A stretch of DNA of 44,518 nucleotides, from assembly GCA_037140655.1 (NCBI GenBank), contig JBAXEA010000001.1, forward strand, positions 1 to 44,518, in the 5' to 3' direction. Each line of letters starts with the position of its first letter. The first letter of the stretch is position 1. Below are positions 22,401 through 43,271 of this stretch, piece after piece. Source of the stretch: a bacterium (GTDB taxonomy: Bacteria; Patescibacteriota; Minisyncoccia; Phycocordibacterales; UBA9973). The position numbers and the translations under genes are program-made. The notes below the pieces were generated by a model. It was not told the origin of the DNA. It did no database searches and worked only from the letters and a program-made list of their open reading frames with translations.

Positions 22401-22635
22401 GCCTAAAAAGGAAAAAGCAGATAAAGATATAATCGAAGATATGGAAAAGGTTCGTAAAATCGTTTCACTTGGACTTGAGGCAAGACAAAAAGCTGGAATA
22501 AAAGTTCGACAGCCACTTTCAAAAATTGAAATAAAAGATTTTAATCTAGATGAGAGATATTTCTCTTTGATAAAAGATGAATTGAATGTAAAAGAGTTAG
22601 TTGAAAATAAAGAAATAGAAACTGAAGTTAAATGA
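19429..22635 (+). CDS. ileS: Isoleucyl-tRNA synthetase with an internal histidine-phosphatase-like domain; the ORF ends at an in-frame TGA
   Basis: HIGH is ..GKPGIHHLEA.. and KMSKS is ..GKKMSKSLGN... CP1/editing blocks and a zinc knuckle (..PHCWRCKTP..) are present. The insert at 20905..21507 has RHG/R/E/H phosphatase signatures. Confidence 0.9.
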   Translation: MEEQKQTNTEERQKSQTALREEAVLKFWKEKEIFEKTLEKISPEGEFVFYEGPPTANGKPGIHHLEARAFKDVIPRYKTMRGYYVRRKAGWDTHGLPVELEVEKELGLKSKKEIEEFGVAEFNKRCKKSVWKYLDLWNVFTERIGFWVDQKNPYITYDKKYMESIWNVMKTIDDRDLLYKDYKVVPWCPRCGTGLSSHELAQGYKDVKDLSVYAKFKVVGQTDTYILAWTTTPWTLPGNVALAVGKDIEYVKVKQGQDILILAKARLAVLEGDPEVVAEMKGEDLLGLEYEPLYPFLKNNISGTEKEKLDKAFKVYSADFVTTEDGTGVVHTAVMYGQDDFVLGTEIGLPKYHLVGLDGKFLAGTDFLEGRFVRDEEVAVDVIKDLAHRGLLFKKERYEHTYPHCWRCKTPLIYYARDSWYVRMSSLRADLMRENELINWEPEHIKEGRFGEWLREVKDWAISRERYWGTPLPIWVCKDCKEKHVVGSVDDMKENVKKSGNKYFIMRHGGAESNLTGKICSRVEDPDHLTEEGKKQVLHSAGKIKDKNIDLIFSSDFFRTKETAEIVKNEIGLSDGKLILDKRLRELCAGVYDGKNWNDYPHFLKAAPEGSESFSDVKKRAAEFIYEIESKYQNKNILIVTHDSPAKLLFYTALGLNMDDITKIGASYDHFKNAEFRELDFVPISHNDDFELDLHKPYVDDVVLMCACGGEMERVKEVMDVWFDSGTMPFSQDHYPFESEKRSDFFELLSSDLSKTKLLYPADFIAEATDQTRGWFYTLLAVGVLMGKGTPYKNVICLGHILDDEGKKMSKSLGNIIDPWIMIDKYGVDTLRLWMYAVNQPGESKNFDEKTVLELHRQVFGLLYNVLAFYELYRNPLLELKDYRDSENILDQWIIAKFDELNYLCVENMDNYRVLEPTRAIRDFIGDLSTWYLRRSRDRIKDEDKEAKATLYFVLKNLAKIMAPFAPFTAEDVWLRLKNIEDVESVHLADWPKKEKADKDIIEDMEKVRKIVSLGLEARQKAGIKVRQPLSKIEIKDFNLDERYFSLIKDELNVKELVENKEIETEVK

Positions 22636-27261: not shown

Positions 27262-27692
27262 TGCAAAAAGGAATCGATTATCCAGCAATAACTGTTTCAT
27301 GTATTTGCCATGATGGAAATGGTAATTATTTGATGAATAAAAGAAGTACTAATTGTCGTGATGAGCATGGTAATTGGGATTTTGGTGGTGGTGGACTTGA
27401 GCTTGGAGAAACTGTTGAAGATTGCTTGAAAAAGGAAATCAAAGAAGAATTTGGGGTTGAGCCAATAAAATATGAATTTTTAGGATATATAGATATTTTT
27501 AGGAAAATGAATGAGAAAAATACTCATTGGGTTTCTTTTGAATTTTTAGTTTTAGTTGATCGGTCAAAAGTAATAAATGGTGAGCCACACAAATTCGACG
27601 AAATAGGTTGGTTTAAATTAGACAATCTTCCTAAACCTTTACATTCAGTAGCTCCGATTATTTTAGAAAGATTTAAAGATAAATTAATTTAA
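27261..27692 (+). CDS. NUDIX hydrolase
   Basis: The Nudix box is ..[25 protein letters not shown]... The start overlaps the glyQS stop. Confidence 0.85.
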
Positions 27693-28060
27693 TGCGATTT
27701 TATTTACGATCAAAAATTCACAAAGCTACAGTTACTGAAGCAAATTTGAATTATGTGGGTAGTATCACTATTGATAAAAAACTTATTGAGAAAGCTGGCT
27801 TTCATGTTGGTGAAAAAGTTTTAGTTGTCAGTAATACTTCTGGTGCACGACTTGAAACTTACATAATAGAAGGGGAGATAAATTCTGGAGTCATTTGTAT
27901 GAATGGCGCGGCAGCACATTTAATAAAAAAGGGAGAAGAAATCATTATTATGGGTTTTGAATTATCCAATGATGATATTATTCCAGTCGCCATATTGGTG
28001 GATAAAAATAATAAATTTGTAGAATTTTTAGGAACTGAATCTCACGGAGAAATATTCTAA
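27692..28060 (+). CDS. panD: Aspartate 1-decarboxylase (pyruvoyl-dependent)
   Basis: [28 protein letters not shown].. contains the G-S self-cleavage site. ..NGAAAH.. is also present. Confidence 0.9.
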
Positions 28061-32043: not shown

Positions 32044-32610
32044 ATGATATTGGAAACTAAAAGATTGATTTTAAGAAAACCAAAAAGAAGTGACTGGAAA
32101 GACCTTGTGGAAGGTATTGGTGATTATGATGTGGCAGAAATGTTGTTGAAAGTCCCATATCCTTATGTAAAAAAAGATGCAATAGACTATTTAAAAAAAC
32201 AGGAAAAAAGATGGAAGGCTAAAAAGAAAGATGACTATACTTTTGTGATTGAACTAAAATCTGAGAAAAAAGTTATCGGTTCAATTGGTATTCATCGAAT
32301 AGACTTCTTTTCAGGAATAGGAACAACGGGATCTTGGATTAATAAAAAATATTGGCGTAATGGATATATGACTGAAGCTAAAATCATTATTAATGATTTT
32401 GCTTTTAGTGAATTGAAATTAAGAAGATTAAATTCAGATGTGTATAAAAGCAATAAAGCATCAAATGCTACTCAATTAAAGATGGGTTACAAATTTGAAG
32501 GTATGAAAAGAAAAGCTGTTAAAAGTATGGCTTCAAATAAAATTCATTATGAAAATATTTATGGCTTATTAAAAGAAGATTGGATAAAAGCTAAAAAGAA
32601 ATTTAAATAA
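32044..32610 (+). CDS. GNAT-family N-acetyltransferase (RimJ/RimL-like)
   Basis: The N-terminal ..LETKRLILRKPKRSDW.. and ..WRNGYMTEA.. blocks are typical of the family. Confidence 0.8.
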   Translation: MILETKRLILRKPKRSDWKDLVEGIGDYDVAEMLLKVPYPYVKKDAIDYLKKQEKRWKAKKKDDYTFVIELKSEKKVIGSIGIHRIDFFSGIGTTGSWINKKYWRNGYMTEAKIIINDFAFSELKLRRLNSDVYKSNKASNATQLKMGYKFEGMKRKAVKSMASNKIHYENIYGLLKEDWIKAKKKFK

Positions 32611-32611
32611 T

Positions 32612-33466
32612 ATGCCGAAATATTTTGACACACATACACATGTAAACTTTAGAGCCTTTGATGAAGACAGAGAGGCTGTGATAGCACGTGCACTCGACAA
32701 TGACACTTGGATGATAAATGTCGGTACTCAGATAGACACATCACGTAGTGCTGTAGAGCTCGCACATAAGTATGCTGAGGGTGTGTATGCAGTTATAGGT
32801 CTTCACCCGATTCATACAGAAAAATCGCACCATGATGAGCAGGAGCTTGGTGAGGGTGGTAAGGAATTCACATCTCGTGGAGAAATTTTTGATAAAGATA
32901 TTTACCGAGAACTTTTGAAAGATGATAAGGTGGTAGCCATAGGCGAATGTGGCCTTGATTATTATCATATGGATGAAGAATCAATCGAAAAGCAAAAGAA
33001 AACATTTATCGAGCAAATTGAGCTTGCGAATGAAATAGGTAAGCCTTTGATGATCCACACACGGAATTCTTCTACGGATAAAACTCACAATGTGTATTTT
33101 GATGTATGGGAAATATTGAAAAAATTTCCAAACGTGAAAGGAGTTTTTCATTTCTTTGCCGGTAGTGTGGAAGATATGAAAAGATTAGTGGATATTGGTT
33201 ATTATATTTCTTTTGCTGGACCGATTACTTATAAGCCTAAAATAGAAATTTGTGATTACATAGCAGTCATAAAAGAAACTCCATCAGATAGAATTCTCAC
33301 AGATACTGATGCACCGTATGTGGCTCCTGTGCCATATCGTGGAAAACGTAATGAACCTGTGTATGTAAAAGAAATTGTGAAAAAGATTGCAGAGATAAAA
33401 AATATCCCAGAGGAAGAAATGGCAAAAATAATAGTAGAAAATACTAAAAGAATTTTTAAAATATAA
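32612..33466 (+). CDS. TatD-family metal-dependent hydrolase/DNase
   Basis: ..YFDTHTHVNF.., ..AIGECGLDY.. and ..TDAPY.. motifs are present. Confidence 0.9.
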   Translation: MPKYFDTHTHVNFRAFDEDREAVIARALDNDTWMINVGTQIDTSRSAVELAHKYAEGVYAVIGLHPIHTEKSHHDEQELGEGGKEFTSRGEIFDKDIYRELLKDDKVVAIGECGLDYYHMDEESIEKQKKTFIEQIELANEIGKPLMIHTRNSSTDKTHNVYFDVWEILKKFPNVKGVFHFFAGSVEDMKRLVDIGYYISFAGPITYKPKIEICDYIAVIKETPSDRILTDTDAPYVAPVPYRGKRNEPVYVKEIVKKIAEIKNIPEEEMAKIIVENTKRIFKI

Positions 33467-33486
33467 AAAAATAAAATAAAAACTTT

Positions 33487-33524
33487 CAGTTGGACTAAAT
33501 TTGTGGTCTAGTTGTGTTTTTTTT
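33487..33524 (+). terminator. Weak candidate terminator after tatD
   Basis: CAGTTGGAC-(10 nt)-GTCTAGTTG forms a 9-bp stem including 3 G-U pairs, followed by TGTTTTTTTT. Confidence 0.4.
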
Positions 33525-33579
33525 GATTTAAGAAAGCTTATATGTTATTTTTAAATAATACTTTTACTTAAAAATAAGA

Positions 33580-34698
33580 ATGGATAAAAATAAATTTAAC
33601 AAAATTGAAAAAAGACAACTAACAGAGCAATTAAATGATGCGAACCTACGCTTAAAAAATATAATAGAGAGCACTGATGTCGGGACATGGGAATGGAACA
33701 TCAAAACCGGAGAAATGGTTTTCAGTGATAAGTGGGCAGAAATTTTAGGGTATCCTATTTCTGACATAGGACCAAATAATATACAAACATTGGAAAAAAT
33801 ATCTCATCCAGATGACTTCGCTAAAGCATCTGCACTTATAAAGCAACACATTGCAGGTGAGTTGCCTTACTACAAGCATGAAAATAGAGTTAAACATAAA
33901 CATGGTCATTGGGTTTGGGTATGTGAAAGAGGTTGTGTAGCCAGTTTTGATGAAGATGGAAATCCATTGACTATGTTTGGTACGCATACAGACATAACAA
34001 AGAGAAAACAAATAGAACAGGCACTCGAAAACTATATAAACACTTTAAACCATGATTTACGAAGTCCTTTAGCTATCATCATCGGCTATTCGAGTTTTCT
34101 GCTAGATGAAAGTTTGTCACCAGAAGAGATAAAAAAGTTTGCGATGATCATAAATAGTACTGGAAAGAAAATGCTAAAGATGATGGAAAGTTATTTACTC
34201 TTAGCAAAGATTGAAAAGGGGCAAGATATCTTGGGAAAGAAACCAAAAACAGTAGTAGAAGTAATGGAAGGAGTAAAAAGAATTTTCTCAGATATTAAAG
34301 GTAGTAAAAAAATAAATGTTCACTTGAAAGATTTGGAGAATAAGCCCGTTGATTCTGGTTTGATGAAAAAAACTATTTTAATAGATGAAATTCTTTTTGA
34401 TTCATTAGTTGATAATTTACTTCGTAATGCAGTCGATGCGTCTGCTGAAAGTGATGGAGAAGTTTCTGTAAATATCTTTCAAGATAATGATTTTCTTCGT
34501 TTGAGTTTTTTTAATAAAGGAGAAATTTCAAAAGAAATACAAAAAAGATTGTTTAAAAAATTCATAAGTAATAAAAAAAATGGAACAGGTATAGGGCTGT
34601 ATAGTGTGAAGCTGATAGCTCGTGCTCACGGGGGAGACATACAATATCAATCAGTTCCAGGAGGAACAAGATTTATAGTAAAAGTTCCTTTTGACTAA
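33580..34698 (+). CDS. Cytoplasmic PAS-domain sensor histidine kinase
   Basis: No TM segment. The PAS region is ..GTWEWNIKTGEMVFSDKWAEILGY..HPDD... The H-box is ..LNHDLRSPL.., the N-box is ..LLRNAVDA.. and the G2 box is ..GTGIGL... Confidence 0.85.
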   Translation: MDKNKFNKIEKRQLTEQLNDANLRLKNIIESTDVGTWEWNIKTGEMVFSDKWAEILGYPISDIGPNNIQTLEKISHPDDFAKASALIKQHIAGELPYYKHENRVKHKHGHWVWVCERGCVASFDEDGNPLTMFGTHTDITKRKQIEQALENYINTLNHDLRSPLAIIIGYSSFLLDESLSPEEIKKFAMIINSTGKKMLKMMESYLLLAKIEKGQDILGKKPKTVVEVMEGVKRIFSDIKGSKKINVHLKDLENKPVDSGLMKKTILIDEILFDSLVDNLLRNAVDASAESDGEVSVNIFQDNDFLRLSFFNKGEISKEIQKRLFKKFISNKKNGTGIGLYSVKLIARAHGGDIQYQSVPGGTRFIVKVPFD

Positions 34699-34701
34699 AT
34701 A

Positions 34702-34710
34702 TGTTATAAT
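34702..34710 (+). promoter_or_regulatory. Extended -10 box (TGtTATAAT), 9 nt upstream of the ATG at 34720
   Basis: TGTTATAAT-taaaaaatt-ATG. The spacing is longer than the N6 class. Confidence 0.45.
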
Positions 34711-34719
34711 TAAAAAATT

Positions 34720-35640
34720 ATGAATTGGTTTCTTATAGCATTAGTTGCTCCATTCGTATGGGGAATAGTGAACATCGGTGACCACTATTTGATTTCAAAA
34801 TATTCAGATACGACCAAAGAGCGTAGTTCAGGTGGACTTGTTCTTTTTCCTAGTATGATTGCAGTTTTTGTTGTGTTTTTTATAATGATTTTTAATAATG
34901 GAATTTTTAATATTTCATTAAATGACAAGATTCTGCTTATGCTTTCAGGTGCTCTGACTATCATTTGGATGGTTTTATATTTATATGCACTTGAGATAGA
35001 AGATACTTCGGCTATTGTTCCCTGGTTCTTAACTGTGCCTGTTTTCGGTTTTGTTCTAGGTTATTTCTTTTTGGGAGAAACTTTAAATATAAAACAATTG
35101 ATTGGATCTATTGTGGTCCTTATCGGCGTCGCTTTAGTTTCATTTAATTTTTTTGATAAAGAAAAAAAGACCAAAAGAAAACCAGTTTTTTATATGCTGA
35201 TTGCATGTTTTATTCTCGCTGTGTCTGGAGTTATTTTTAAATTTGTAACAGTTGAAGGTAATTTTTGGGTATCTTCTTTTTGGGAATATTTTGGTTTAGG
35301 ATCTACTGGTTTTTTGATTTTTCTTTTTATTCCAAAATTTAGAAAAGAATTTATGCATATGAATAGGACAGGGGGCAGAAAGATTTTTTTCGTCAATATT
35401 GTTACTGAATTTTTAACAATAATGGCAAACCTTGTAACAAATTTTGCATTGTTGCTTGCTCCTGTAGCAATGGTTTATCTTGTAGGTAGTTTCCAGCCAG
35501 CTATTGTTCTGTTTTTGACCATAATAGGAACTAAATTCCTGCCCCATATTATAAAAGAAGATATTTCTAAGAAAACTTTAGTTCCTAAGATTATTGCAGT
35601 TGTGTTGATGACAATAGGTAGTATTATATTATTTTTATGA
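34720..35640 (+). CDS. EamA/DMT-superfamily membrane transporter
   Basis: 306 aa with about 10 TM segments in two halves. The TGA stop overlaps the next ATG (ATGA). Confidence 0.7.
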   Translation: MNWFLIALVAPFVWGIVNIGDHYLISKYSDTTKERSSGGLVLFPSMIAVFVVFFIMIFNNGIFNISLNDKILLMLSGALTIIWMVLYLYALEIEDTSAIVPWFLTVPVFGFVLGYFFLGETLNIKQLIGSIVVLIGVALVSFNFFDKEKKTKRKPVFYMLIACFILAVSGVIFKFVTVEGNFWVSSFWEYFGLGSTGFLIFLFIPKFRKEFMHMNRTGGRKIFFVNIVTEFLTIMANLVTNFALLLAPVAMVYLVGSFQPAIVLFLTIIGTKFLPHIIKEDISKKTLVPKIIAVVLMTIGSIILFL

Positions 35641-36494
35641 TAGTATGTAATCCAATGACTCAAATAGTCGATTATAATGAAATAATGTCTGACCGAAACA
35701 AATTTAATGATTTTGTTTATACTCCGTTATCAGAAGCACTTAAAATTTTAGAAGAAAGACAGAAAGATACAGAATTAGTTAAAAAAGTTGAGGATTTATT
35801 GAATGGAGATATTCCAGAATTTTTCAAAAAAAATAATAAATGTGGTGTGCACTTTAGACAGATTGCTACTCCAAACAATGAAGCTAAGAAGTTTTTAAAA
35901 ATTGCAAAAGATTTTGATATGTTGCCAGTTTTTATGGAGTATCACAGTGATAAATTCTCTTCAAATAATCCATTTAAACGTTCTCTTGGTCAGTTGAATA
36001 TGGAAGGTCCACTAAATAAAATAAATGAGTATAGATTTGAAAAGATTAGTATTATGGACTTCAATAAACATAATGGTAAATCTTTAAAAGAAGTTGTGAC
36101 TCATTGGAACGAGCCCTTAATTGATTTTCATAAGGGGCTTTTTGTTGTGTCTGGATTAGATGATAAAGATTGTCATTTTTTTGATACATCAGAATGGATA
36201 AAGAATCATGGTGGTAAACCCGAGCTTTATTATAAAAATTTTTTACTATTTTTTACTTGCCATGGAATTTTGTTTGAAAATTTTTTAAATTCAAAAAATG
36301 GAGAAGGGGACTTTACAAAAGATGTTATCTTGCCGGCTATAGAAGAAATTATGAAATTAACTGGGGTTAAGCCTTTGATTGTCCCTACTGACCCACTTGA
36401 TATGGAAAGTGATAATTATTGGACACTATATCATCCTGATACTAAAATTTTGATAAATAAAAAATTAAATAAAGAGGATAAGTTTGAGAAATAA
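35637..36494 (+). CDS. Hypothetical protein, paralog A of the 36850 gene
   Basis: It aligns end to end with the 36850..37647 product. Shared blocks are YTP.,EA, LNGDIPE, TP..E..FL, DKF, DFNK..GK, L(I/V)DFH, SEW.K..G..P..YY, FT...ILP, G.KP.IV and YW. I recognise no family. Confidence 0.6.
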   Translation: MIVCNPMTQIVDYNEIMSDRNKFNDFVYTPLSEALKILEERQKDTELVKKVEDLLNGDIPEFFKKNNKCGVHFRQIATPNNEAKKFLKIAKDFDMLPVFMEYHSDKFSSNNPFKRSLGQLNMEGPLNKINEYRFEKISIMDFNKHNGKSLKEVVTHWNEPLIDFHKGLFVVSGLDDKDCHFFDTSEWIKNHGGKPELYYKNFLLFFTCHGILFENFLNSKNGEGDFTKDVILPAIEEIMKLTGVKPLIVPTDPLDMESDNYWTLYHPDTKILINKKLNKEDKFEK

Positions 36495-36524
36495 ATTATA
36501 TATTAGTATAATATAAGAATAAAC

Positions 36525-36872
36525 ATGAAATTAAATAATACAAATTTTAGGCATTCTTTACTGACTATTTTTTTGTTTCTTTCATTGTCGGTGATTGTAT
36601 TTTTTTGTTTTTACCACTTTTTTATAAAGAATACTTTTGAAGTAACAAAACAGGTTCCTTGTGATCCTGCTGTTGATTCATGCTTTGTTTCAGATTGTGA
36701 CACGAATGATTCAACTTGTGATACAACTACGACATATAAAAAAATTAAAGCTCCTTCAAAATACGCAGGTTCAAATTATGAAAACTTTACTTGTGAGGCA
36801 GGAAATCCTAATTGTGAAATAATTACTTGCAATGATTCTACTGTAGAGGATGGAGAAAAATGTTTTAAATAA
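36525..36872 (+). CDS. Small membrane-anchored/secreted cysteine-rich protein
   Basis: An N-terminal hydrophobic segment (LLTIFLFLSLSVIVFFCFYHFF) precedes 8 Cys arranged C-x6-C-x4-C-x6-C ... C-x6-C-x4-C-x10-C. TATAAT/TATAAG boxes lie at 36507..36517. Confidence 0.55.
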   Translation: MKLNNTNFRHSLLTIFLFLSLSVIVFFCFYHFFIKNTFEVTKQVPCDPAVDSCFVSDCDTNDSTCDTTTTYKKIKAPSKYAGSNYENFTCEAGNPNCEIITCNDSTVEDGEKCFK

Positions 36873-37647
36873 TATTATGGACATATACACTCCAATCGAA
36901 GAAGCAGGGGAGATAATCAGAAAACGCTGGGAAGACAAAGACTTACGTAAAAGGGTTGAAGAAAAATTAAATGGTGATATACCTGAAATATTAAAAGATG
37001 GACCACATGGGCTTATTTGGCGATGTATTTGTACTCCTGATGGAGAGTTTCAAAGGTTTCTGGATTTGTGTGAAATAGCAAAATTAAAACCAGTTGGTTT
37101 CGAAAATTCACAAGATAAATTTGTGGCTGGTAATTTTACTAAATATGGGTTAACTAAGTTGTCCTTTTCAGATGGATTAGATAAAAATAACAACAATATT
37201 GTTATAAAAAAAAGTATTGTCGACTTCAATAAATTTGAAGGAAAAAAAATGTGTGATTTGGAAACTCTTTGGGGTGAAAATTTAGTTGATTTTCACCACT
37301 TCTTTTTAGAATCTATTTTCCCGGTTATGAAAGACAATGTGATTGATATGTCAGAATGGATGAAAAGAAATGGTGAGATACCCAAAAAATATTATTTTTC
37401 AATACTTTCTTTTGCAATTTGTCACACTGTTTATTTTGATGATTATGATTTAATAGAGTCAGAAGAAAGTTTTACTAATGAAATAATATTACCTACATTG
37501 AAAGAAGTAGAAAATTACTTTGGAATTAAGCCAATTATTGTTAAAATATCTAAGGTTGGAGAGCATGAAAAAGATCCTTATTGGTGGTGTTATTCTAAAG
37601 AATCAAAAATTATTATGGATAATCATATAAACGAATATACATGTTAA
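36850..37647 (+). CDS. Hypothetical protein, paralog B of the 35637 gene
   Basis: See paralog A. The start is either 36850 (overlapping the upstream gene by 23 nt) or the ATG at 36877 (MDIYTP.., 4 nt after the upstream stop). Confidence 0.6.
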   Translation: MEKNVLNNIMDIYTPIEEAGEIIRKRWEDKDLRKRVEEKLNGDIPEILKDGPHGLIWRCICTPDGEFQRFLDLCEIAKLKPVGFENSQDKFVAGNFTKYGLTKLSFSDGLDKNNNNIVIKKSIVDFNKFEGKKMCDLETLWGENLVDFHHFFLESIFPVMKDNVIDMSEWMKRNGEIPKKYYFSILSFAICHTVYFDDYDLIESEESFTNEIILPTLKEVENYFGIKPIIVKISKVGEHEKDPYWWCYSKESKIIMDNHINEYTC

Positions 37648-39323
37648 ACTTACTTTCATCAATTTTTATAAAAGACACGTATTGCTTCACTCAATTAATA
37701 GTAAATCAGGTTTATACTCCTGTTTCTCTTATTTTATATTCACATATTCCTACTGCGCTTGTTACTATTTTTGTTGGAGTATTTTTATTTACTCGTAGTA
37801 AAAGTTTAGAGACAAAAATATTTTTCTTTTTATCAATAATATTCTTTTTATTTACTCTTGGTGATTTAGTTGAATGGTTTGTTTTTTTTGGTAGAAATAC
37901 TGTTTTGTTTGCTCGTTCAATGATAGAAATACTAGATATAATGTTGTTTTTATTTTCTTTTTATTTTCTTTTTGTTTTAATAAAAAAAAGAGATGTTCGT
38001 TTTATTTATAAATCATTGTGGTTATTGCCGGCACTTTCTTTTGTTGGAGTTTTGATTTTTTTTATAAGTAAAAATACGTTAAGTTATAATTGGCAGATTT
38101 GTGAGGTTTCAGAAAATGGATTTGTTGGAACTTATGGATATTATGTTGATGTATTTTATTTATTATCCGCGATAATCTTTGCTGTTTGGTCAATAATTAA
38201 AAACAAAAACAACAGAAGAGAAATTTCTATTATCTCAGCTGGGGTGCTTTCTTTTATGATTTTGTTTTTTGTTATGGAATATGTTTTTACTGGATATCTT
38301 TTGGGTGGAGTTTTTGATTATAACTATTTCTTATATGCTTTGTTTGGTATGCCGATATTGATAGGATTTTTGGCTTACCTTATTGTTGAATACAAAACAT
38401 TTAATATTAAACTTCTTGCAACCCAGGTTTTAGTTTGGGGACTTGGAGCTCTTATCGGCGCACAATTCTTCTTTGCCACTTCTACAGAAAATTATATTTT
38501 AATTGCTATTACATTTATCGTCTCAATTATTTTCGGAGATATCCTTATTAAAGCAATTAAGAAAGAAGTAAAACAGAAAGAAGAATTAGCTGCTTTGAAT
38601 ATCGATTTAAGTAAACTTATTCAACAAAGAGAGAGTTTGGTTCATTTGATTACTCACAAGGTTAAAGGTTCTTTCACCCATACGAAATATATTTTTGCAG
38701 GAATATTAGATGGCATGTATGGTGAGCCATCAGATGCATTAAAGAAGGTTGCAAAGTACGGTTTAGATTCTGATGACAATGGAGTTAAAACTGTTGACCT
38801 TATTTTAAATGCCTCAAATCTTCAGAAGGGTACAGTGAAATTTGACTTGAAGCCAATTAATTTTAAAGACTTAGTCACTAGTGTTGTAGATGAGAAAAAA
38901 GAAAGATTTGAAGAAAAAGGTTTGAAATTGAATGTTGATATTAAAGAAGATGAATATAAAGTAAATGGTGATGCATTTTGGTTGAGAGAAGTTGTAAATA
39001 ATCTGATAGAAAATGCACTCCGATATACAAAAGAGGGAACAGTAAACGTCAGTTTAAATAAAGAACTTGCCCGCGATGATGGGAATAACAAAATGATCTT
39101 TTCTGTAAAAGACAGTGGAGTCGGTATCACTCCTGAGGATAGAAAGAATTTGTTTATGGAAGGTGGAAGAGGTAAAGATTCAGTAAAGGTGAACGTGGAC
39201 AGTACTGGTTATGGATTATTTACTGTTAAATTGATCATCGAAGCCCATAGTGGAAAAGTATGGGTAGATTCAGAAGGTGAAAATAAGGGTTCAACCTTCT
39301 TTGTGGAGTTAGATTCTGTATAA
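37641..39323 (+). CDS. Multi-TM sensor histidine kinase with an atypical H-box
   Basis: About 8 N-terminal TM segments are followed by a coiled coil. The phosphoacceptor region reads ..LITHKVKGSFTH.., which is HRVKN-like rather than HELRTPL. The N-box is ..NLIENALRYT.., and ..DSGVGI.. and ..GYGLF.. are present. The ATG overlaps the paralog B stop. Confidence 0.85.
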   Translation: MLNLLSSIFIKDTYCFTQLIVNQVYTPVSLILYSHIPTALVTIFVGVFLFTRSKSLETKIFFFLSIIFFLFTLGDLVEWFVFFGRNTVLFARSMIEILDIMLFLFSFYFLFVLIKKRDVRFIYKSLWLLPALSFVGVLIFFISKNTLSYNWQICEVSENGFVGTYGYYVDVFYLLSAIIFAVWSIIKNKNNRREISIISAGVLSFMILFFVMEYVFTGYLLGGVFDYNYFLYALFGMPILIGFLAYLIVEYKTFNIKLLATQVLVWGLGALIGAQFFFATSTENYILIAITFIVSIIFGDILIKAIKKEVKQKEELAALNIDLSKLIQQRESLVHLITHKVKGSFTHTKYIFAGILDGMYGEPSDALKKVAKYGLDSDDNGVKTVDLILNASNLQKGTVKFDLKPINFKDLVTSVVDEKKERFEEKGLKLNVDIKEDEYKVNGDAFWLREVVNNLIENALRYTKEGTVNVSLNKELARDDGNNKMIFSVKDSGVGITPEDRKNLFMEGGRGKDSVKVNVDSTGYGLFTVKLIIEAHSGKVWVDSEGENKGSTFFVELDSV

Positions 39324-39364
39324 AGCATATTCTAGCACTAGGGGTTTACATTTTTGATTTATTT

Positions 39365-39373
39365 TGTTAGTAT
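39365..39373 (+). promoter_or_regulatory. Extended -10 box (TGtTAGTAT), 7 nt upstream of the ATG at 39381
   Basis: TGTTAGTAT-acaattt-ATG. Confidence 0.45.
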
Positions 39374-39380
39374 ACAATTT

Positions 39381-39902
39381 ATGCAAGACAAGAAAAATAA
39401 AGGTGAAATGTCTATGGATTTGGAAGAAACCAACTCCACAGACCCACGAGTTTACGAAGTAGGCTATCTTTTTGTGCCTACAATTTCCGAAGAGGAATTG
39501 CCTGTAAACTATGGTGATTTAAAAGAATTAATAGCATCATTTGGTGGCAAAATCATTTCTGATGAAATGCCAAAAATGATAAACCTATCATATACGATGC
39601 TGAAAGTTGTTGCGAATGTTCGCAGTAAATTTGATACAGCGTATTTCGGTTGGGTAAAGTTTGAGATGGACCCACAGAAAGTTTTGGAATTAAAAAAGAA
39701 ACTTGATCTAAGTCCAACAATAATCAGATTTTTGATTATTAAAACAGTGAAGGAAAATACAATAGCAACAAAAAGATTTGCTTTCAGAGATTCTACTCAC
39801 AAGAAGCCAGTAGCTAAGAAGGAAGAAGGTGTTTCTGCTGAAAATGTAGAAGTAAATAAAGAAGAGTTAGATAAAGAAATCGACGCGATGATAGCAGTTT
39901 AA
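39381..39902 (+). CDS. rpsF: 30S ribosomal protein S6
   Basis: The ..RVYEVGYLFVP.. core is followed by an acidic/basic C-terminal tail. The start is uncertain. 39381 fits the leaderless pattern, and the ATGs at 39408 and 39414 are alternatives. 39414 has AGGTGA 7 nt upstream. Confidence 0.8.
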   Translation: MQDKKNKGEMSMDLEETNSTDPRVYEVGYLFVPTISEEELPVNYGDLKELIASFGGKIISDEMPKMINLSYTMLKVVANVRSKFDTAYFGWVKFEMDPQKVLELKKKLDLSPTIIRFLIIKTVKENTIATKRFAFRDSTHKKPVAKKEEGVSAENVEVNKEELDKEIDAMIAV

Positions 39903-39928
39903 TTATTAACTAATTTTTTTAAAAAAAT

Positions 39929-40375
39929 ATGTATTTAAACAAAGCAATCGTAATAGGAAACTTAACTCGCGATCCAGAATTACGCTCACTGCCTTCAGGA
40001 ATAAAAGTTTGCACATTCTCTCTTGCCACAAATCGTGTTTGGAAAGATAAGAATGGAGCAAAACAAGAGTCAGCTGATTATCACAATATTGTGGTTTTCG
40101 GAAGACAAGCAGAAACAGTTGCTCAATATATGAAGAAAGGAAATTCAATGTTGGTCGAAGGAAGAATGCAAACAAGAAGTTGGGACGATAAAACAAATGG
40201 AGAGAAAAAATATCGTACTGAAATTGTTGCAGACAGAACACAGTTTGGACCAAAGGGAACAGGATCAGCTCCATCGACAGGTGGACAAGCAGGACCTGCT
40301 AAGGCTTCAAATGAAGAGATGGACCAAATAGAGTACCCAGAAGAAGATATTAACCCAGAAGATATACCATTTTAA
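39929..40375 (+). CDS. ssb: Single-stranded DNA-binding protein
   Basis: MYLNKAIVIGNLTRDPELR.. is the OB fold, and the acidic tail ends ..DIPF. Confidence 0.95.
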   Translation: MYLNKAIVIGNLTRDPELRSLPSGIKVCTFSLATNRVWKDKNGAKQESADYHNIVVFGRQAETVAQYMKKGNSMLVEGRMQTRSWDDKTNGEKKYRTEIVADRTQFGPKGTGSAPSTGGQAGPAKASNEEMDQIEYPEEDINPEDIPF

Positions 40376-40388
40376 TTAACAAATATTT

Positions 40389-40589
40389 ATGAAACAAGAT
40401 TATTTTTCAGCAAACAATATAAAACATATAGACTATAAAGATACAGAAATTTTAAAGAAATTTTTGAATCCAAATGGAAAGATAGTAGGCCACAAGAGAA
40501 CAGGCGTTACTTCAAAGAATCAAAGACAATTGGCTCTTGCCGTAAAGCATGCTCGATTCCTTGGGTTACTTCCATTCGTAGCTAGATAA
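40389..40589 (+). CDS. rpsR: 30S ribosomal protein S18
   Basis: ..IDYKDTEILKKFL..GKI..KRTGVTSKNQRQLALAVKHARFLGLLPF.. is present. The rpsF-ssb-rpsR order is classical. Confidence 0.95.
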   Translation: MKQDYFSANNIKHIDYKDTEILKKFLNPNGKIVGHKRTGVTSKNQRQLALAVKHARFLGLLPFVAR

Positions 40590-40591
40590 AT

Positions 40592-40656
40592 CCCGTAGTG
40601 AGTTTTGATGAAGCACGAAGTGCGTCTGAAAGACATCATCAAAATCTACTACCAGG
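40592..40656. repeat. Family-A structured palindromic element, copy A5 (inverted orientation)
   Basis: CCCGTAGTGAGTTTTGATGA ... TCATCAAAATCTACTACCAGG. Inner hairpins are GTCT-ttc-AGAC and GCAC-ttc-GTGC on the complement. It starts 2 nt after the rpsR stop. Confidence 0.8.
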
Positions 40657-40670
40657 ATAAATTTAAAAAT

Positions 40671-40712
40671 AAAGGCCGCCCTTCCGAAAGGAAGGGCGGC
40701 CTTTTGCTTTTT
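40671..40712 (+). terminator. Strong rho-independent terminator of the rpsF-ssb-rpsR operon
   Basis: GGCCGCCCTTCC-gaaa-GGAAGGGCGGCC followed by TTTTGCTTTTT. Confidence 0.85.
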
Positions 40713-40781: not shown

Positions 40782-43271
40782 TTACTTTTTTATCACTTTT
40801 GTCATAGAGGTTTCATTTCCTTTGGTAACTAGGACAGTATATGTCCCAGAACTTAGGTTAGAAGTTTCTATTTCAATATTATTTTTTCCAATGTTCTTTA
40901 AAATTTCTTTTCCAGAAATATCATACAAAATAATTGTATGTGATTCTTTGTCAGAAAATTTAATGTTCAATTTATCATTGAATGGATTTGGATAAATAAC
41001 ATTTTCATCATCTTTAGCCACAGAAAGAATTCCTGTGGTGTTATTGTAATAAGCGTGAACTGGGTTTGAAATATTTGAACAACCAAAGCTGTTCATTACT
41101 TCAGCTTTATACCAGCCTGACATATTAGCAGTATAATATCCACTTGTAGCTCCATTTATCAAATTATTATAGTAGTACCATTTATAGGTATCACCAGTAA
41201 ATTGATGACAAACAGCTAAAGCTGTATCGTTCCAGATTGTTATAGATGCATCAGGTTTTTGTATCATTTGTACATGAACAGGAATTGCATCTTTAGAACA
41301 ACCGAAGCTGTTTATTACATTACCATACACCATACCGGTCCAGTTTACCTGAATAGATTGAGTAACCATTCCGCCATTATTCCAGAAATAAGTATTACCT
41401 ATTCCAGAATTAAGAGTTAATGTCGTACTACTTCCTTCACAAAATACTGTATCACCAGTAATTTTTGCATTAGGCAAAGGATTAATTATTACATAAACTG
41501 TATCAGTTTCTGAACATCCGTCCATATTTGATATTGTTACAAAATATTTTCCACTTTGGTGTATCAAAAGTGTTGTTCCTGTAGTTCCATTATTCCAAAT
41601 TGCTGTTGTTTGTGAAAAGTATGATGTACTACCAACCAAAAGTTGATAATCATGATTTTCATTTTCACAAATTCTTAATGTATCTACAACAGATGTTTGT
41701 GGACTTAATGGGTATCCAGTATTATTTGAGTAAATTACTGGATTCATTTTTTGTGGAGCTCCGACACTTATTGGATAATCATATCCCAATGTACAACCAT
41801 GTGCGTTTACTATACTAACCAAATAATTTCCTTGGTTTGATATTGTATGGTTATGTGAAGTTGTTGTAGTCAATACAGCACCTACTCCATTTTTCCAAAT
41901 AAACATATCAGAATTTGTTCCAGATATATTTATTGTAACCGGAGTGTTTCCACATCCTAGTGTAGGATTAGATGGACTTACCTGGATATTTCCTGGTTTT
42001 GCCCAAACATGTATTGTTACAATTTTATCAGCTAACCAATTACCTGAAATACTATCTAATATAGTAAGTTTTATGTAAGTAGTCGTAGCTTGATTGTAAG
42101 CTATGTCCTGATTTACATTTGCACCAGACAAATTTCCTTGTGCCCATGGCGTGTCCCATAGATATAATAAACCATTACTGATTGTAGATGTATTTATTAT
42201 GTGCAGGTAACCACCTTCACATAAATCTGTTGTAGTAACTGTAAAATCAGCTACTGGTGGAACTGTTATTGTTTGACCAGCAGGTGAAGCTACCATTCCA
42301 ACTGGATATGTGATGGCTGATTGCATTCCAATTCCTGTATAACTTACAAGTGTTTTTATGTTTCCATAAAAAGATGGATTTACATTTGCATAAATATCAA
42401 ATATTTTTGTGACACTTGAAGATACTACAATTTGGCTCCCAGTAAAAATAACATTACTAGGACTAACATTTGCAATTACATTTCCTAAAGTTATGCCAGA
42501 ATTTCCGTCTACAATGGTTAGATTGTGGATTTGATTTAGTGGATACGCATTTGGCGTAAAGTTTAAAAAACTTATTTGCAAAGATGTAACTTTAATATCT
42601 TCATTGCCACAATTGTTACTTATGGTATAAGACCCAATTTTAGTCCATGTGGTATTACTAGGTAATACTTGATCAGAATAATTCCAATTTCTTGAAAAAT
42701 CTAAACCATAACATGGATTAGTAACAGTAATGATTTGTCCTGGAGTATCTGCTTGAGAAGTTCCAGAAGGACACCATGGTAAACTTAATCCAAAATGTAC
42801 GGAAGTACCACTGTAATTAAAAGATGTTTGTACAGTTCCACCGACATTACCAACATTTACAAAAACATTTATTTCCTTTGTTGCTCCAGGCAGTAAAGTA
42901 TCTGTGCATAAAAAAGAATTGTTCCAATTTACATTGGTTAAGATTGATCCTATCGTTTGTCCTGCACATTGTATTGACAGGTTACTAAGATAAAGACAAT
43001 TAATTGTTGTACTGTTGGGTGGATTTACGATCGTCAAAAACAATTGTGATGTTACGATTGTATCGTTTGTATTATTTGTAACATGATACGAAGCGATTTG
43101 ACAATTTGTTTGGTTTGGAGATACTGTTTGGTTAACAAAATTTGGATTTAAATTTATTGTTAATCCAGTGCAGGTTGTTCCTGTTGTTGTAACTTGTGCA
43201 CTTACATTACTACTTGTTCCAGCCATAATAATTATGGCGAACATTACTAAGCTTAAAAATACTTTTTTCAT
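40782..43271 (-). CDS. Secreted multi-domain protein with tandem Ig-like Cys-bounded modules and a T9SS (Por) type-A C-terminal sorting domain
   Basis: The signal peptide is MKKVFLSLVMFAIIIMAGTSSNVSAQV. Four modules are bounded by C..G at the start and (H/D/F)GC(S/T) at the end. The C-terminal ..VIYPNPFNDKLNIKF..ILYDISGKEI..LSSGTYTVLVTKGNE..KVIKK matches the TIGR04183-type CTD pattern. Confidence 0.8.
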   Translation of the reverse strand: MKKVFLSLVMFAIIIMAGTSSNVSAQVTTTGTTCTGLTINLNPNFVNQTVSPNQTNCQIASYHVTNNTNDTIVTSQLFLTIVNPPNSTTINCLYLSNLSIQCAGQTIGSILTNVNWNNSFLCTDTLLPGATKEINVFVNVGNVGGTVQTSFNYSGTSVHFGLSLPWCPSGTSQADTPGQIITVTNPCYGLDFSRNWNYSDQVLPSNTTWTKIGSYTISNNCGNEDIKVTSLQISFLNFTPNAYPLNQIHNLTIVDGNSGITLGNVIANVSPSNVIFTGSQIVVSSSVTKIFDIYANVNPSFYGNIKTLVSYTGIGMQSAITYPVGMVASPAGQTITVPPVADFTVTTTDLCEGGYLHIINTSTISNGLLYLWDTPWAQGNLSGANVNQDIAYNQATTTYIKLTILDSISGNWLADKIVTIHVWAKPGNIQVSPSNPTLGCGNTPVTINISGTNSDMFIWKNGVGAVLTTTTSHNHTISNQGNYLVSIVNAHGCTLGYDYPISVGAPQKMNPVIYSNNTGYPLSPQTSVVDTLRICENENHDYQLLVGSTSYFSQTTAIWNNGTTGTTLLIHQSGKYFVTISNMDGCSETDTVYVIINPLPNAKITGDTVFCEGSSTTLTLNSGIGNTYFWNNGGMVTQSIQVNWTGMVYGNVINSFGCSKDAIPVHVQMIQKPDASITIWNDTALAVCHQFTGDTYKWYYYNNLINGATSGYYTANMSGWYKAEVMNSFGCSNISNPVHAYYNNTTGILSVAKDDENVIYPNPFNDKLNIKFSDKESHTIILYDISGKEILKNIGKNNIEIETSNLSSGTYTVLVTKGNETSMTKVIKK

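What the first reader, a model, noticed from the sequence alone, without database searches (positions are those of the whole stretch)
33580..39323. Compact six-gene sensor locus: two kinases without a response regulator, a DMT transporter, and two paralogous unknowns flanking a Cys-rich mini-protein
Seen: six co-directional genes have gaps or overlaps of 21, -4, 30, -23 (or +4) and -7 nt.
- A cytoplasmic PAS kinase.
- An EamA/DMT transporter.
- Paralog A (285 aa).
- A 115-aa TM-anchored protein whose ectodomain has 8 Cys in a duplicated C-x6-C-x4-C pattern.
- Paralog B (265 aa).
- An about 8-TM kinase whose phosphoacceptor box reads THKVKGSF (HRVKN-like).

Paralogs A and B align end to end, with shared blocks LNGDIPE, DKF, DFNK..GK, L(I/V)DFH, SEW.K..G..P..YY, G.KP.IV and YW. 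They match no family I can name. ATGA and ATGTTAA overlaps couple A to the transporter and B to the membrane kinase. No receiver domain or DNA-binding protein occurs anywhere in the window.

Inference: this is a candidate self-contained signalling or export module. One possibility is a disulfide-rich exported ligand made or handled by the paralogs, exported through the DMT protein and sensed by the kinases. This is the most system-like set of uncharacterised genes in the window, but the functional link is speculative.
Basis: inference. Interest (0 to 1): 0.65.

Follow-up and report, generated by a model that had tools for sequence, protein, structure and literature searches.

The report
Conserved Patescibacteria sensor-kinase accessory module
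In the tiny, mostly uncultured Patescibacteria, a membrane histidine kinase is almost always encoded beside two uncharacterised proteins, a cytoplasmic one with no recognisable relative and a small cysteine-rich surface one, which together look like an unstudied sensing module; the extra PAS kinase and the second paralog in this window are local additions.

Summary
The six genes, their spacings, domains, paralogy (37% identity, E 3e-50) and Cys pattern are all real. Across about 120 loci from other genomes and metagenomes, four of the six form a conserved Patescibacteria module:
- a membrane slot filled by EamA or, alternatively, an unknown ~184-aa multi-TM protein (M184);
- MINI, the TM-anchored Cys-rich ectodomain protein;
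- FAM, the paralog family;
- a 9-TM HisKA-type kinase.

FAM-anchored search: 37 of 40 loci carry the kinase. Kinase-anchored search: 38 of 40 have FAM within two genes. FAM has no Pfam, NCBIfam or PDB sequence match, and its confident AlphaFold model (pLDDT 94.8) has no significant Foldseek match. It is sometimes fused to SET, GNAT or a multi-TM domain. MINI divergence tracks the kinase's TM sensor (Mantel r 0.70), and that sensor has two invariant outward-facing Cys.

The PAS kinase is absent from all other loci. Paralog A is one of several recurrent lineage-specific duplications. "No response regulator" holds for the window but not for the family: stand-alone receivers follow the kinase in a few lineages, beside PilT/PilC or a GT2 synthase.

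Best reading: MINI is a co-sensor and FAM a cytoplasmic partner of a membrane sensor kinase. FAM's biochemistry is unknown.

The parts
33487..33514 (+). Terminator-like hairpin followed by a T-run between TatD and the PAS kinase. It is the probable upstream boundary of the transcription unit.
   Evidence: 11-bp stem followed by TGTTTTTTTT. This is a consensus scan only.
33580..34698 (+). Cytoplasmic PAS_3-HisKA-HATPase_c histidine kinase (372 aa). It is a neighbour of the conserved module, not a member of it.
   Evidence: Pfam. No counterpart in any of about 120 related loci. Absent from the syntenic contig of P0024.
34720..35640 (+). EamA/DMT 10-TM transporter (306 aa). It fills the module's membrane-partner slot, which other lineages fill with M184.
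   Evidence: PF00892 with two stretches, E 1.2e-14. EamA-only 17+12 loci, M184-only 11+9, both 1, neither 11+8. ATGA overlap with paralog A.
35637..36494 (+). FAM paralog A (285 aa), the extra copy. It is closer in sequence to the generic family type.
   Evidence: 37% identity to B, E 3e-50. No Pfam, NCBIfam or PDB hit. 35 of 57 FAMs are closer to A than to B. It keeps all the family's invariant residues.
36484..36512 (+). Best sigma-70-like site in the region (TTGAGA-17-TATAAT, 11 of 12 matches), 12 nt upstream of the MINI start codon. It is a possible internal promoter for MINI, paralog B and the kinase.
   Evidence: The total count of promoter-like sites equals the shuffle expectation, so this is weak evidence.
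36525..36872 (+). MINI (115 aa): an N-in signal-anchor helix plus a beta-rich ectodomain with 8 Cys. Proposed co-sensor of the kinase.
   Evidence: Found in 36 of 50 FAM-anchored loci and 20 of 29 kinase-anchored loci. AF2 pLDDT 84.5, with a helix at residues 5-35. No Foldseek, PDB or Pfam match. Mantel r 0.70 with the kinase TM domain.
36850..37647 (+). FAM paralog B (265 aa from 36850, or 256 aa from 36877). This is the kinase-coupled copy.
   Evidence: ATGTTAA overlap with the kinase. AF2 pLDDT 94.8, pTM 0.91. No significant Foldseek hit. 965 family representatives.
37641..39323 (+). 9-TM HisKA-type sensor histidine kinase (560 aa). It has no large extracytoplasmic domain. Two invariant Cys (C15 and C154) are predicted to face outward.
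   Evidence: HATPase_c E 2.5e-21. The H-box His and the N, G1, F and G2 boxes are conserved across 38 orthologues. TM-domain invariants. FAM lies directly upstream in 36 of 40 kinase-anchored loci.

Best explanation
Window 34720-39323 carries a Patescibacteria-specific membrane sensing module built around a 9-TM HisKA-type histidine kinase.

Shown:
- The kinase, a FAM protein, the MINI protein and a membrane partner (EamA, or alternatively the unknown multi-TM protein M184) are kept together across many species.
- The kinase keeps every catalytic box.
- FAM is a soluble protein of unknown fold class with a conserved polar residue set.
- MINI is a single-pass protein with a Cys-rich ectodomain.

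Inferred:
1. The kinase has only short outward loops, so it senses through its TM bundle together with MINI. MINI's ectodomain would dock on the kinase's outer face, which carries a conserved Cys pair. MINI therefore acts as a tethered co-sensor, not a diffusible ligand.
2. FAM, usually translationally coupled to the kinase, works on the cytoplasmic side as a ligand-binding or enzymatic partner that modulates the kinase or is modulated by it. In some lineages it recruits, or is replaced by, a SET lysine methyltransferase.
3. EamA or M184 supplies a transport or membrane function linked to the sensed condition.
4. Output goes to stand-alone receiver proteins that are usually encoded elsewhere. 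These act on envelope machinery (type IV pilus PilT/PilC, a GT2 polysaccharide synthase) rather than on transcription.

In this window the PAS kinase is an unrelated insertion and paralog A is a lineage-specific duplicate of FAM.
For: Conservation:
- FAM-anchored search of one genome per species gave 49 loci. Of 40 with at least 2 kb downstream, 37 have the same TM-type kinase; it is adjacent in 28 and within 3 genes in 36.
- Reciprocal search with the kinase TM domain alone in metagenomes gave 40 kinases with at least 1 kb upstream. FAM is directly upstream in 36 and within two genes in 38.
- The FAM-to-kinase gap is -17 to +25 nt in 27 of 28 adjacent pairs.
- Gene order is shuffled among lineages, yet the genes stay together.
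- Official gene calls agree.

Kinase competence: the His and the N, G1, F and G2 boxes are conserved.

MINI as co-sensor:
- A 23-residue anchor helix and a folded ectodomain.
- The ectodomain is no more divergent than the kinase TM domain (median identity 0.28 vs 0.29), with a conserved Cys scaffold.
- MINI vs kinase TM domain: Mantel r 0.70, p 0.0005. Partial r is 0.63 controlling for FAM. MINI vs the catalytic domain gives r 0.10.
- The kinase TM domain has invariant C15 and C154 on the same predicted outer face.

FAM as cytoplasmic partner:
- No TM segment or signal sequence.
- Invariant R, E, D, N, K, H, Y and E residues.
- Fusions to SET (P0074, P0111, P0141, P0190, P0201, P0301, L027), to GNAT (P0069, P0103, P0144) and to a multi-TM domain (P0145, P0163).
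- SET occupies the FAM position in the two FAM-less kinase loci.

Output: REC-PilT-PilC follows the kinase in L071, L083 and L104. REC-GT2-REC follows it in L007. REC-REC proteins follow it in L037 and L054.
Against: - No direct evidence of any physical interaction. No multimer modelling or expression data were obtainable: searches found no transcripts.
- Mantel correlations can reflect shared phylogeny. The catalytic domain is a poor phylogenetic control because its identities are saturated.
- FAM's many invariant polar residues and its fusions to enzymes fit an enzyme in a small-molecule pathway at least as well as a kinase regulator.
- FAM divergence does not track the DHp or catalytic domains (r 0.16 and 0.06).
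- Receivers are adjacent in only about 7% of loci, and those loci come from few lineages, so the pilus or polysaccharide output may not generalise.
- MINI was detected in only about 70% of loci. Some absences may be short or divergent ORFs that my ORF caller missed.
- The topology was derived by hand from hydropathy and the positive-inside rule.
Confidence: 0.5

Rival explanations
1. Metabolite pathway under kinase control. FAM is an enzyme, possibly nucleotide- or cofactor-dependent, that makes or modifies a small amine-containing molecule. SET or GNAT adds methyl or acetyl groups in some lineages. EamA or M184 moves the compound across the membrane. The kinase only senses or regulates this traffic.
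For: - About 11 near-invariant polar residues in FAM, typical of an active site.
- The weak, non-significant Foldseek hits are consistently HUP-class nucleotide-binding folds: cytidylyltransferases, TtuA, QueC, USP.
- Fusions to SET and GNAT enzymes.
- ATGA coupling of EamA to paralog A, and EamA-FAM adjacency in both orders.
- A GNAT-FAM fusion lies next to an AdoMet-decarboxylase/spermine-synthase gene.
Against: - FAM's near-universal and tightest link is to the kinase (36 of 40 and 28 of 40 directly adjacent). Its link to EamA is much weaker: EamA is present in about 40% of loci and is replaced by an unrelated protein or absent in the rest.
- No other biosynthetic gene recurs in the neighbourhood.
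- The polyamine neighbour is a single case.
Confidence: 0.22
2. FAM is the kinase's non-canonical phospho-acceptor or output, standing in for a response regulator in these reduced genomes.
For: - More than 90% of loci have no receiver gene nearby.
- FAM is paired with the kinase in almost every locus examined and is translationally coupled to it.
- FAM has invariant Asp and His residues.
Against: - FAM and a conventional receiver coexist in the same locus in L104, L007 and L054.
- FAM has no sequence or fold similarity to receiver or Hpt domains.
- Orphan kinases with distant receivers are common; this point rests on established knowledge, not a test here.
Confidence: 0.1
3. Peptide quorum-sensing cassette analogous to agrBDCA or comQXPA. 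MINI is a precursor that is modified (by FAM), processed or exported (by M184 or EamA), and sensed by the multi-TM kinase.
For: - The gene order resembles comQ-comX-comP.
- The multi-TM kinase lacks an extracellular domain, like AgrC and ComP (own knowledge).
- M184 is similar in size to AgrB.
- Radical-SAM/SPASM genes lie beside the module in L004 and L012.
Against: - MINI is 105-230 aa with a long anchor helix and a folded ectodomain, not a short peptide.
- It is not hypervariable, and its Cys scaffold is conserved across deep lineages.
- FAM and M184 match no peptide-maturation family.
- No cognate LytTR or ComA-type regulator is present.
- The rSAM neighbours occur in only 2 of about 120 loci.
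Confidence: 0.08
4. There is no functional unit. Unrelated genes merely sit together through conserved housekeeping synteny.
For: The module lies within conserved housekeeping synteny. DnaK/DnaJ are upstream and TrpRS/AspRS downstream in many loci. In the window, MetRS/TatD are upstream and S6/SSB/S18 downstream.
Against: - The flanking housekeeping genes differ between lineages while the module stays intact.
- The internal order is shuffled but the genes remain contiguous and co-directional.
- Gene fusions exist: FAM-SET, and a multi-TM domain fused to FAM.
Confidence: 0.02

Closest known systems
Multi-TM sensor kinases that need small accessory membrane proteins: B. subtilis KinB with KapB/KbaA, WalK with YycH/YycI, LiaS with LiaF (own knowledge; YycH/YycI are described as an unusual class of kinase regulators in a reference listed)
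   Same: A histidine kinase is co-encoded and tightly coupled with small membrane-anchored extracytoplasmic proteins that shape its activity. The kinase has little or no extracellular domain of its own.
   Different: MINI, FAM and M184 have no detectable sequence relationship to any Pfam or NCBIfam family, and MINI and FAM have no significant fold match in the PDB; comparison with those accessory proteins specifically was not made. A soluble cytoplasmic partner is part of the core here. No adjacent DNA-binding response regulator is present.
agrBDCA and comQXPA peptide quorum-sensing cassettes (own knowledge)
   Same: Compact co-directional order: modifier or membrane protein, then a small protein, then a multi-TM histidine kinase.
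   Different: The small protein is a conserved, folded, anchored ectodomain rather than a short hypervariable pheromone. No AgrB or ComQ homologue and no AgrA or ComA regulator is present.
Single-domain response regulators that control type IV pili, such as PilG/PilH of the Pseudomonas Chp system (PMC10519157, listed)
   Same: In L071, L083 and L104 the kinase is followed by a 128-133-aa receiver with no output domain, and then by PilT and PilC. This suggests post-translational control of pilus dynamics.
   Different: The input is a TM sensor kinase with FAM and MINI, not a CheA/MCP array. The link is seen in only one lineage. In the window the pilus genes (109-2792) lie 32 kb away.
KdpD-type kinases with a USP (HUP-class) nucleotide-binding domain (PDB 7ji4, a weak Foldseek hit)
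   Same: A Rossmann-like nucleotide-binding module is attached to a membrane histidine kinase as a cytoplasmic regulatory input. This is a possible analogy for FAM.
   Different: The similarity is not significant (E 0.93, TM 0.24-0.37). FAM is a separate 250-290-aa protein with its own motifs (DKF..N..K and WGE.LVDFHH).

Membership tests
HisKA-type two-component sensor histidine kinase (gene 37641-39323) | Phospho-acceptor His in a DHp helix | tested here: met
   The His of LITHKVKGSF is invariant across 38 orthologues. NCBIfam kinase models align across residues 308-557.
HisKA-type two-component sensor histidine kinase (gene 37641-39323) | GHKL ATPase domain with N, G1, F and G2 boxes | tested here: met
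   HATPase_c E 2.5e-21. NlidNxikYT, kDtGxGi, LF and tGxGLy are conserved.
HisKA-type two-component sensor histidine kinase (gene 37641-39323) | Match to the Pfam HisKA (PF00512) model | tested here: inconclusive
   Not reported for the window protein at E up to 1. PF00512 is recorded for orthologues in L001, L002 and L054 and for the P0042 neighbour. The H+1 residue is K or Q, not the usual E or D.
HisKA-type two-component sensor histidine kinase (gene 37641-39323) | Cognate receiver-domain partner | tested here: inconclusive
   None in the 44.5-kb window. Present directly downstream of orthologues in L007, L037, L054, L071, L083 and L104. The rest of the genome is not available.
HisKA_2 / HWE ('HRVKN') kinases | Match to the HisKA_2 or HWE model and an HRVKN H-box | tested here: not met
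   No such Pfam hit at E up to 1. The family consensus is H-q-x-x-g-p-l-t.
PAS sensor histidine kinase (gene 33580-34698) | PAS + HisKA + HATPase_c architecture | tested here: met
   PAS_3 4.4e-16, HisKA 7.3e-13, HATPase_c 1.4e-17.
DMT / EamA transporter (gene 34720-35640) | Two EamA repeats and about 10 TM segments | tested here: met
   PF00892 with two stretches, E 1.2e-14. About 10 hydrophobic segments. Substrate is not testable here.
Receiver (CheY-like) domain, considered for FAM | Response_reg profile match or flavodoxin-like fold | tested here: not met
   No Pfam or NCBIfam hit. No receiver among the Foldseek hits.
HUP-class nucleotide-binding alpha/beta fold, considered for FAM | Significant structural match to nucleotidyltransferase, PP-loop or USP domains | tested here: inconclusive
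   The top hits are of this class but not significant: PDB best E 0.1 with TM no higher than 0.45, BFVD best E 0.011 with TM about 0.3. The profile finds nothing in PDB sequences. AlphaFold DB and HHpred were not available.
agr / comQXPA-type peptide quorum sensing | Short hypervariable precursor peptide, a dedicated maturation enzyme and an adjacent cognate regulator | tested here: not met
   MINI is 105-230 aa, anchored, folded and no more divergent than the kinase TM domain. FAM and M184 match no Pfam family, so no AgrB or ComQ relative is evident; no adjacent regulator.
Known anti-phage defence systems | Match to PADLOC models | tested here: not met
   No hit for FAM, MINI, EamA or M184. 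The kinase gives only a generic ATPase-domain hit.

The most novel reading that the evidence does not exclude
FAM and MINI are founding members of two new protein families. Together with a 9-TM kinase they form a lineage-defining contact or envelope sensor of Patescibacteria. In this reading MINI reads an extracellular (possibly host-surface or redox) cue through a disulfide-rich interface with the kinase. FAM is a new kind of kinase-coupled cytoplasmic enzyme or adaptor that links the signal to protein lysine modification (SET, GNAT). It also links the signal, through output-less receivers, to type IV pili, the organelle these episymbionts use to attach to hosts.
Probability: 0.18. Interest if true: 0.8.

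Novelty: new variant of a known kind. Interest (0 to 1): 0.62.

Why it matters
Patescibacteria (CPR) make up a large share of bacterial diversity. They have tiny genomes, few recognisable regulators and an obligate episymbiotic lifestyle, yet how they sense hosts or their environment is essentially unknown.

A sensor kinase that is nearly always encoded with the same uncharacterised partners gives a concrete, testable entry point into CPR signalling. The FAM family has about 1000 clusters at 50% identity, and the association holds across Parcubacteria-type and Peribacteria-labelled lineages.

FAM also yields a confident structure model with no significant relative in the PDB or BFVD. MINI is a new small disulfide-rich ectodomain. 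Both are candidates for new family definitions.

The recurrent SET and GNAT fusions hint at lysine modification within a bacterial two-component pathway, which would be unusual.

Tried and rejected
- Sequence family assignment of FAM, MINI and M184 against Pfam, NCBIfam, PADLOC and PDB sequences (single sequences and profiles): nothing significant.
- Fold assignment with Foldseek against PDB and BFVD for FAM, and PDB for MINI: no hit at E of 1e-3 or better.
- Transcript evidence: only DNA runs hold the locus, and the two metatranscriptomes from the same sample contain nothing from it.
- Riboswitch or other RNA leader: no Rfam match at E up to 1 in 32500-40700.
- Repeats: only the DNA trace of the A/B paralogy.
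- M184 as the membrane domain fused to FAM in P0145 and P0163: rejected, because the M184 profile does not match them. They instead match the L108 216-aa protein.
- MINI-FAM fusions: rejected. No MINI profile hit was found in the long FAM proteins, and the 60-120-aa N-terminal extensions look like mis-called starts.
- A consistent replacement partner in the FAM loci that lack the kinase (L012, L024, L041, L045): none. The neighbours are an aldolase-like protein, an APH-like kinase, a restriction-modification system and a radical-SAM protein.
- Literature: no description of this module in three searches. The Lipocone paper was read and is not relevant.
- The first reciprocal scan, with all 37 kinase TM domains, failed for lack of a conserved stretch. 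It was repeated with a 15-member subgroup.

Full report
**1.

The six co-directional ORFs exist at the stated coordinates. Their spacings are +21, -4 (ATGA), +30, -23 or +4, and -7 (ATGTTAA).

Pfam gives PAS_3 + HisKA + HATPase_c for gene 1, EamA (two stretches) for gene 2 and HATPase_c for gene 6. It gives nothing for the two paralogs or the 115-aa protein. NCBIfam agrees.

The paralogs align over 254 residues at 37% identity, E 3e-50. The small protein has one hydrophobic segment (residues 11-33). Its 8 ectodomain cysteines are arranged C-x6-C-x4-C-x6-C and C-x6-C-x4-C-x10-C.

No receiver domain is found in the window ORFs scanned or by a local receiver profile.

Minor corrections:
- The kinase has 9 rather than about 8 hydrophobic segments.
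- Its H-box is a divergent HisKA type, not HisKA_2.
- The window does encode DNA-binding proteins (RecO, RecJ, and SSB by synteny), though no recognisable transcription factor.

**2. The paralog family (FAM)**

A single-sequence search found 63 clusters, all labelled hypothetical and all from Patescibacteria. A profile search of 1.84 billion representatives found 965 proteins at E up to 1e-3, and 501 at E up to 1e-30. A 96-sequence profile search found 778 clusters, again with no name and no Pfam domain except SET fusions.

The alignment shows invariant or near-invariant R, E, D-x-F, N, K, (D)FH(H), Y and E residues. Both window copies keep them.

AlphaFold2 gives a confident alpha/beta model (pLDDT 94.8, pTM 0.91). 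Foldseek finds nothing at E of 1e-3 or better in the PDB or BFVD. The weak top hits are consistently HUP-class nucleotide-binding folds such as cytidylyltransferases, TtuA, QueC and USP, with TM-scores no higher than 0.45. I treat that only as a lead. Profile searches against PDB sequences are empty.

**3. Fusions**

Among long family members, seven carry a C-terminal SET domain: P0074, P0111, P0141, P0190, P0201, P0301 and the L027 gene. Three carry an N-terminal GNAT domain: P0069, P0103 and P0144. Two (P0145, P0163) carry an N-terminal multi-TM domain that also occurs as a free gene in L108.

**4. Neighbourhood census**

I anchored first on FAM, using one genome per GTDB species. This gave 49 loci, nearly all labelled Patescibacteria: Paceibacterota, Nomura-, Staskawicz-, Morani-, Kaiser-, Taylor- and Peribacteria. 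ORFs were called with my own script and labelled by jackhmmer or hmmsearch.

- Of 40 loci with at least 2 kb downstream of FAM, 37 carry a kinase with the same TM domain. It is directly adjacent in 28 and within three genes in 36.
- MINI occurs in 36 of 50 loci, EamA in 20 and SET in 6. Two FAM copies occur in 7.
- A fifth recurrent component appeared: an unknown multi-TM protein of about 184 aa (M184, no Pfam).
- M184 and EamA are nearly mutually exclusive in the same upstream slot: 17 EamA-only, 11 M184-only, 1 both, 11 neither.
- FAM-to-kinase spacing is -17 to +25 nt in 27 of 28 adjacent pairs.

Official gene calls from six independent look-ups agree.

The reciprocal test used only the kinase's TM domain as query on metagenome contigs and gave 70 loci.
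- Of 40 kinases with at least 1 kb upstream, FAM is directly upstream in 36 and within two genes in 38.
- Both exceptions have SET there instead.
- Of 29 with at least 2.6 kb upstream, 12 have EamA, 9 have M184, none has both, and 20 have MINI.

Gene order inside the module varies. FAM can lie before or after EamA, MINI before or after FAM, and SET can lie on either strand. The genes nonetheless stay contiguous.

**5. What is not part of the module**

The PAS kinase has no counterpart in any other locus. The contig of P0024, which shares the window's gene order, runs MetRS-TatD-EamA-MINI-FAM-kinase-S6-SSB-S18 and has neither the PAS kinase nor paralog A.

Two-copy loci have copies that are 26-95% identical, so duplication is recurrent and of different ages. 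The window's paralog A is closer to the generic family type (35 of 57 FAMs), while paralog B belongs to a narrower clade.

A terminator-like hairpin (33487-33514) precedes the PAS kinase. The best sigma-70-like site in the region (11 of 12 matches) lies 12 nt before the MINI start codon. This hints that MINI, paralog B and the kinase could be transcribed on their own, but it rests on a consensus scan only.

**6. The kinase and MINI**

The kinase family keeps the phospho-acceptor His and the N, G1, F and G2 boxes, so it should be catalytically active. Its sensor is a 9-TM bundle with short loops.

Across 37 orthologues only C15, Y33, W79 and C154 are invariant. By hydropathy and the positive-inside rule, C15 (N-terminal tail) and C154 (the TM4-TM5 loop, conserved 'CE' motif) lie on the same outer face. 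This is my inference.

MINI is modelled as one long helix (residues 5-35) followed by a beta-rich ectodomain (pLDDT 84.5), with no PDB fold match.

Across 30 loci the MINI ectodomain is no more divergent than the kinase TM domain (median identity 0.28 vs 0.29) and keeps its Cys scaffold. Its divergence tracks the kinase TM domain:
- Mantel r 0.70, p 0.0005.
- Partial r 0.63 controlling for FAM.
- r 0.10 against the catalytic domain.

This fits a tethered co-sensor. It argues against both a hypervariable pheromone and a cargo of the DMT transporter.

**7. Output**

Receivers are absent from the window, but they follow the orthologous kinase in several loci:
- L037: a REC-REC protein with a 4-nt overlap.
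- L054: a REC-REC protein.
- L007: REC, then a GT2/cellulose-synthase-like protein, then REC.
- L071, L083 and L104: REC, then a PilT-like ATPase, then PilC.

None of these receivers has a DNA-binding output. FAM and a receiver coexist in L104, L007 and L054, so FAM does not simply replace the receiver. The window has pilus genes (PilC and pilins, 109-2792), but they are 32 kb away.

**8. Interpretation**

The best-supported reading is a Patescibacteria-specific membrane sensing module.
- The 9-TM kinase senses together with MINI on the outside.
- FAM acts as a cytoplasmic ligand-binding or enzymatic partner of the kinase, sometimes joined or replaced by SET.
- EamA or M184 supplies a membrane or transport function.
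- Stand-alone receivers encoded elsewhere carry the signal to envelope machinery.

The conservation, kinase competence, MINI architecture and co-variation are shown. The physical interactions and the roles of FAM, EamA and M184 are inferred.

The main rival is that FAM is an enzyme in a small-molecule pathway served by EamA. Its invariant polar residues and enzyme fusions fit that, but its linkage to the kinase is far stronger than its linkage to EamA.

A quorum-sensing cassette, FAM as a phospho-acceptor, and mere synteny are each less likely, for the reasons given under the rival explanations.

**9. Novelty**

The kinase, the EamA protein and the PAS kinase are ordinary family members. The module as a unit is not described in the libraries or literature available here. 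The same holds for FAM, MINI and M184.

I rate it a new variant of a known kind: a two-component sensor kinase with an unprecedented set of accessory proteins.

Limits:
- AlphaFold DB, HHpred, multimer modelling, whole genomes and usable transcriptomes were not available.
- Census numbers rest on my simple ORF caller.

Noticed in passing
window 19429-22635 (+): An IleRS-like class I tRNA synthetase (1068 aa) has a histidine-phosphatase domain (His_Phos_1, residues 504-678, E 3e-29) inserted between the two halves of its catalytic domain. This is an unusual insertion.
   Followed up: no
window 40782-43271 (-): An 829-aa secreted protein carries a T9SS C-terminal sorting domain (Por_Secre_tail, E 1.7e-14). 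It is inserted between S18 and EF-P relative to the P0024 contig, which shares the window's gene order. GC skew flattens from about 40 kb. A T9SS sorting domain is unexpected in a Patescibacterium.
   Followed up: no
window 27692-28060, 32044-32610, 33580-34698 and 35637-36494: Four genes are extra relative to the syntenic contig of P0024: PanD (aspartate decarboxylase), a GNAT acetyltransferase, the PAS kinase and FAM paralog A. This region of the genome accumulates insertions.
   Followed up: partly
L009-L042 and L055-L105 (for example L025:1657-2211): M184 is an uncharacterised multi-TM protein of about 184 aa with no Pfam or PDB match. It occupies the slot upstream of MINI or FAM in roughly 20 genome loci and 9 metagenome loci, almost never together with EamA.
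   Followed up: partly
L104:4226-6961, L083 and L071: In one lineage the module's kinase is followed by a single-domain receiver, a PilT-like ATPase and PilC. The window's own PilC and pilin genes are at 109-2792.
   Followed up: partly
L004 (the 11662-12984 gene) and L012:1479-2774: Radical-SAM/SPASM maturase-like genes lie beside the module in two loci, and in L004 one is followed by a 61-aa ORF. YcaO plus DUF2268 lie upstream in L002 and L003. These are possible peptide-modification neighbours but are too rare to weigh.
   Followed up: no
contig of P0069: A GNAT-FAM fusion gene lies two genes downstream of an AdoMet-decarboxylase/spermine-synthase fusion gene. This is a single hint of a polyamine link.
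   Followed up: no
window 34721-36277: One contig of DNA run X3 joins 34721 to 36277, skipping 1555 nt (EamA and most of paralog A). Depth is 4.6, but only 21 nt lie on one side of the joint. It could be a strain variant lacking these genes or an assembly-graph artefact.
   Followed up: no
L012:609-1367 and L012:7989-8747: Two FAM copies, 95% identical, lie 7.4 kb apart with no kinase in the 9.8-kb locus. This looks like a recent duplication around a block that includes a radical-SAM gene.
   Followed up: no
L010, L022, L023, L032, L041, L047; P0292, P0319, P0324: Some family members sit on contigs labelled Proteobacteria, Geobacteraceae, Micavibrio, Nitrospira/Nitrospirae, Gastranaerophilales or Verrucomicrobiota. 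Most have the usual Patescibacteria-type module around them, so mis-binning seems likelier than a wider host range. This was not tested.
   Followed up: no
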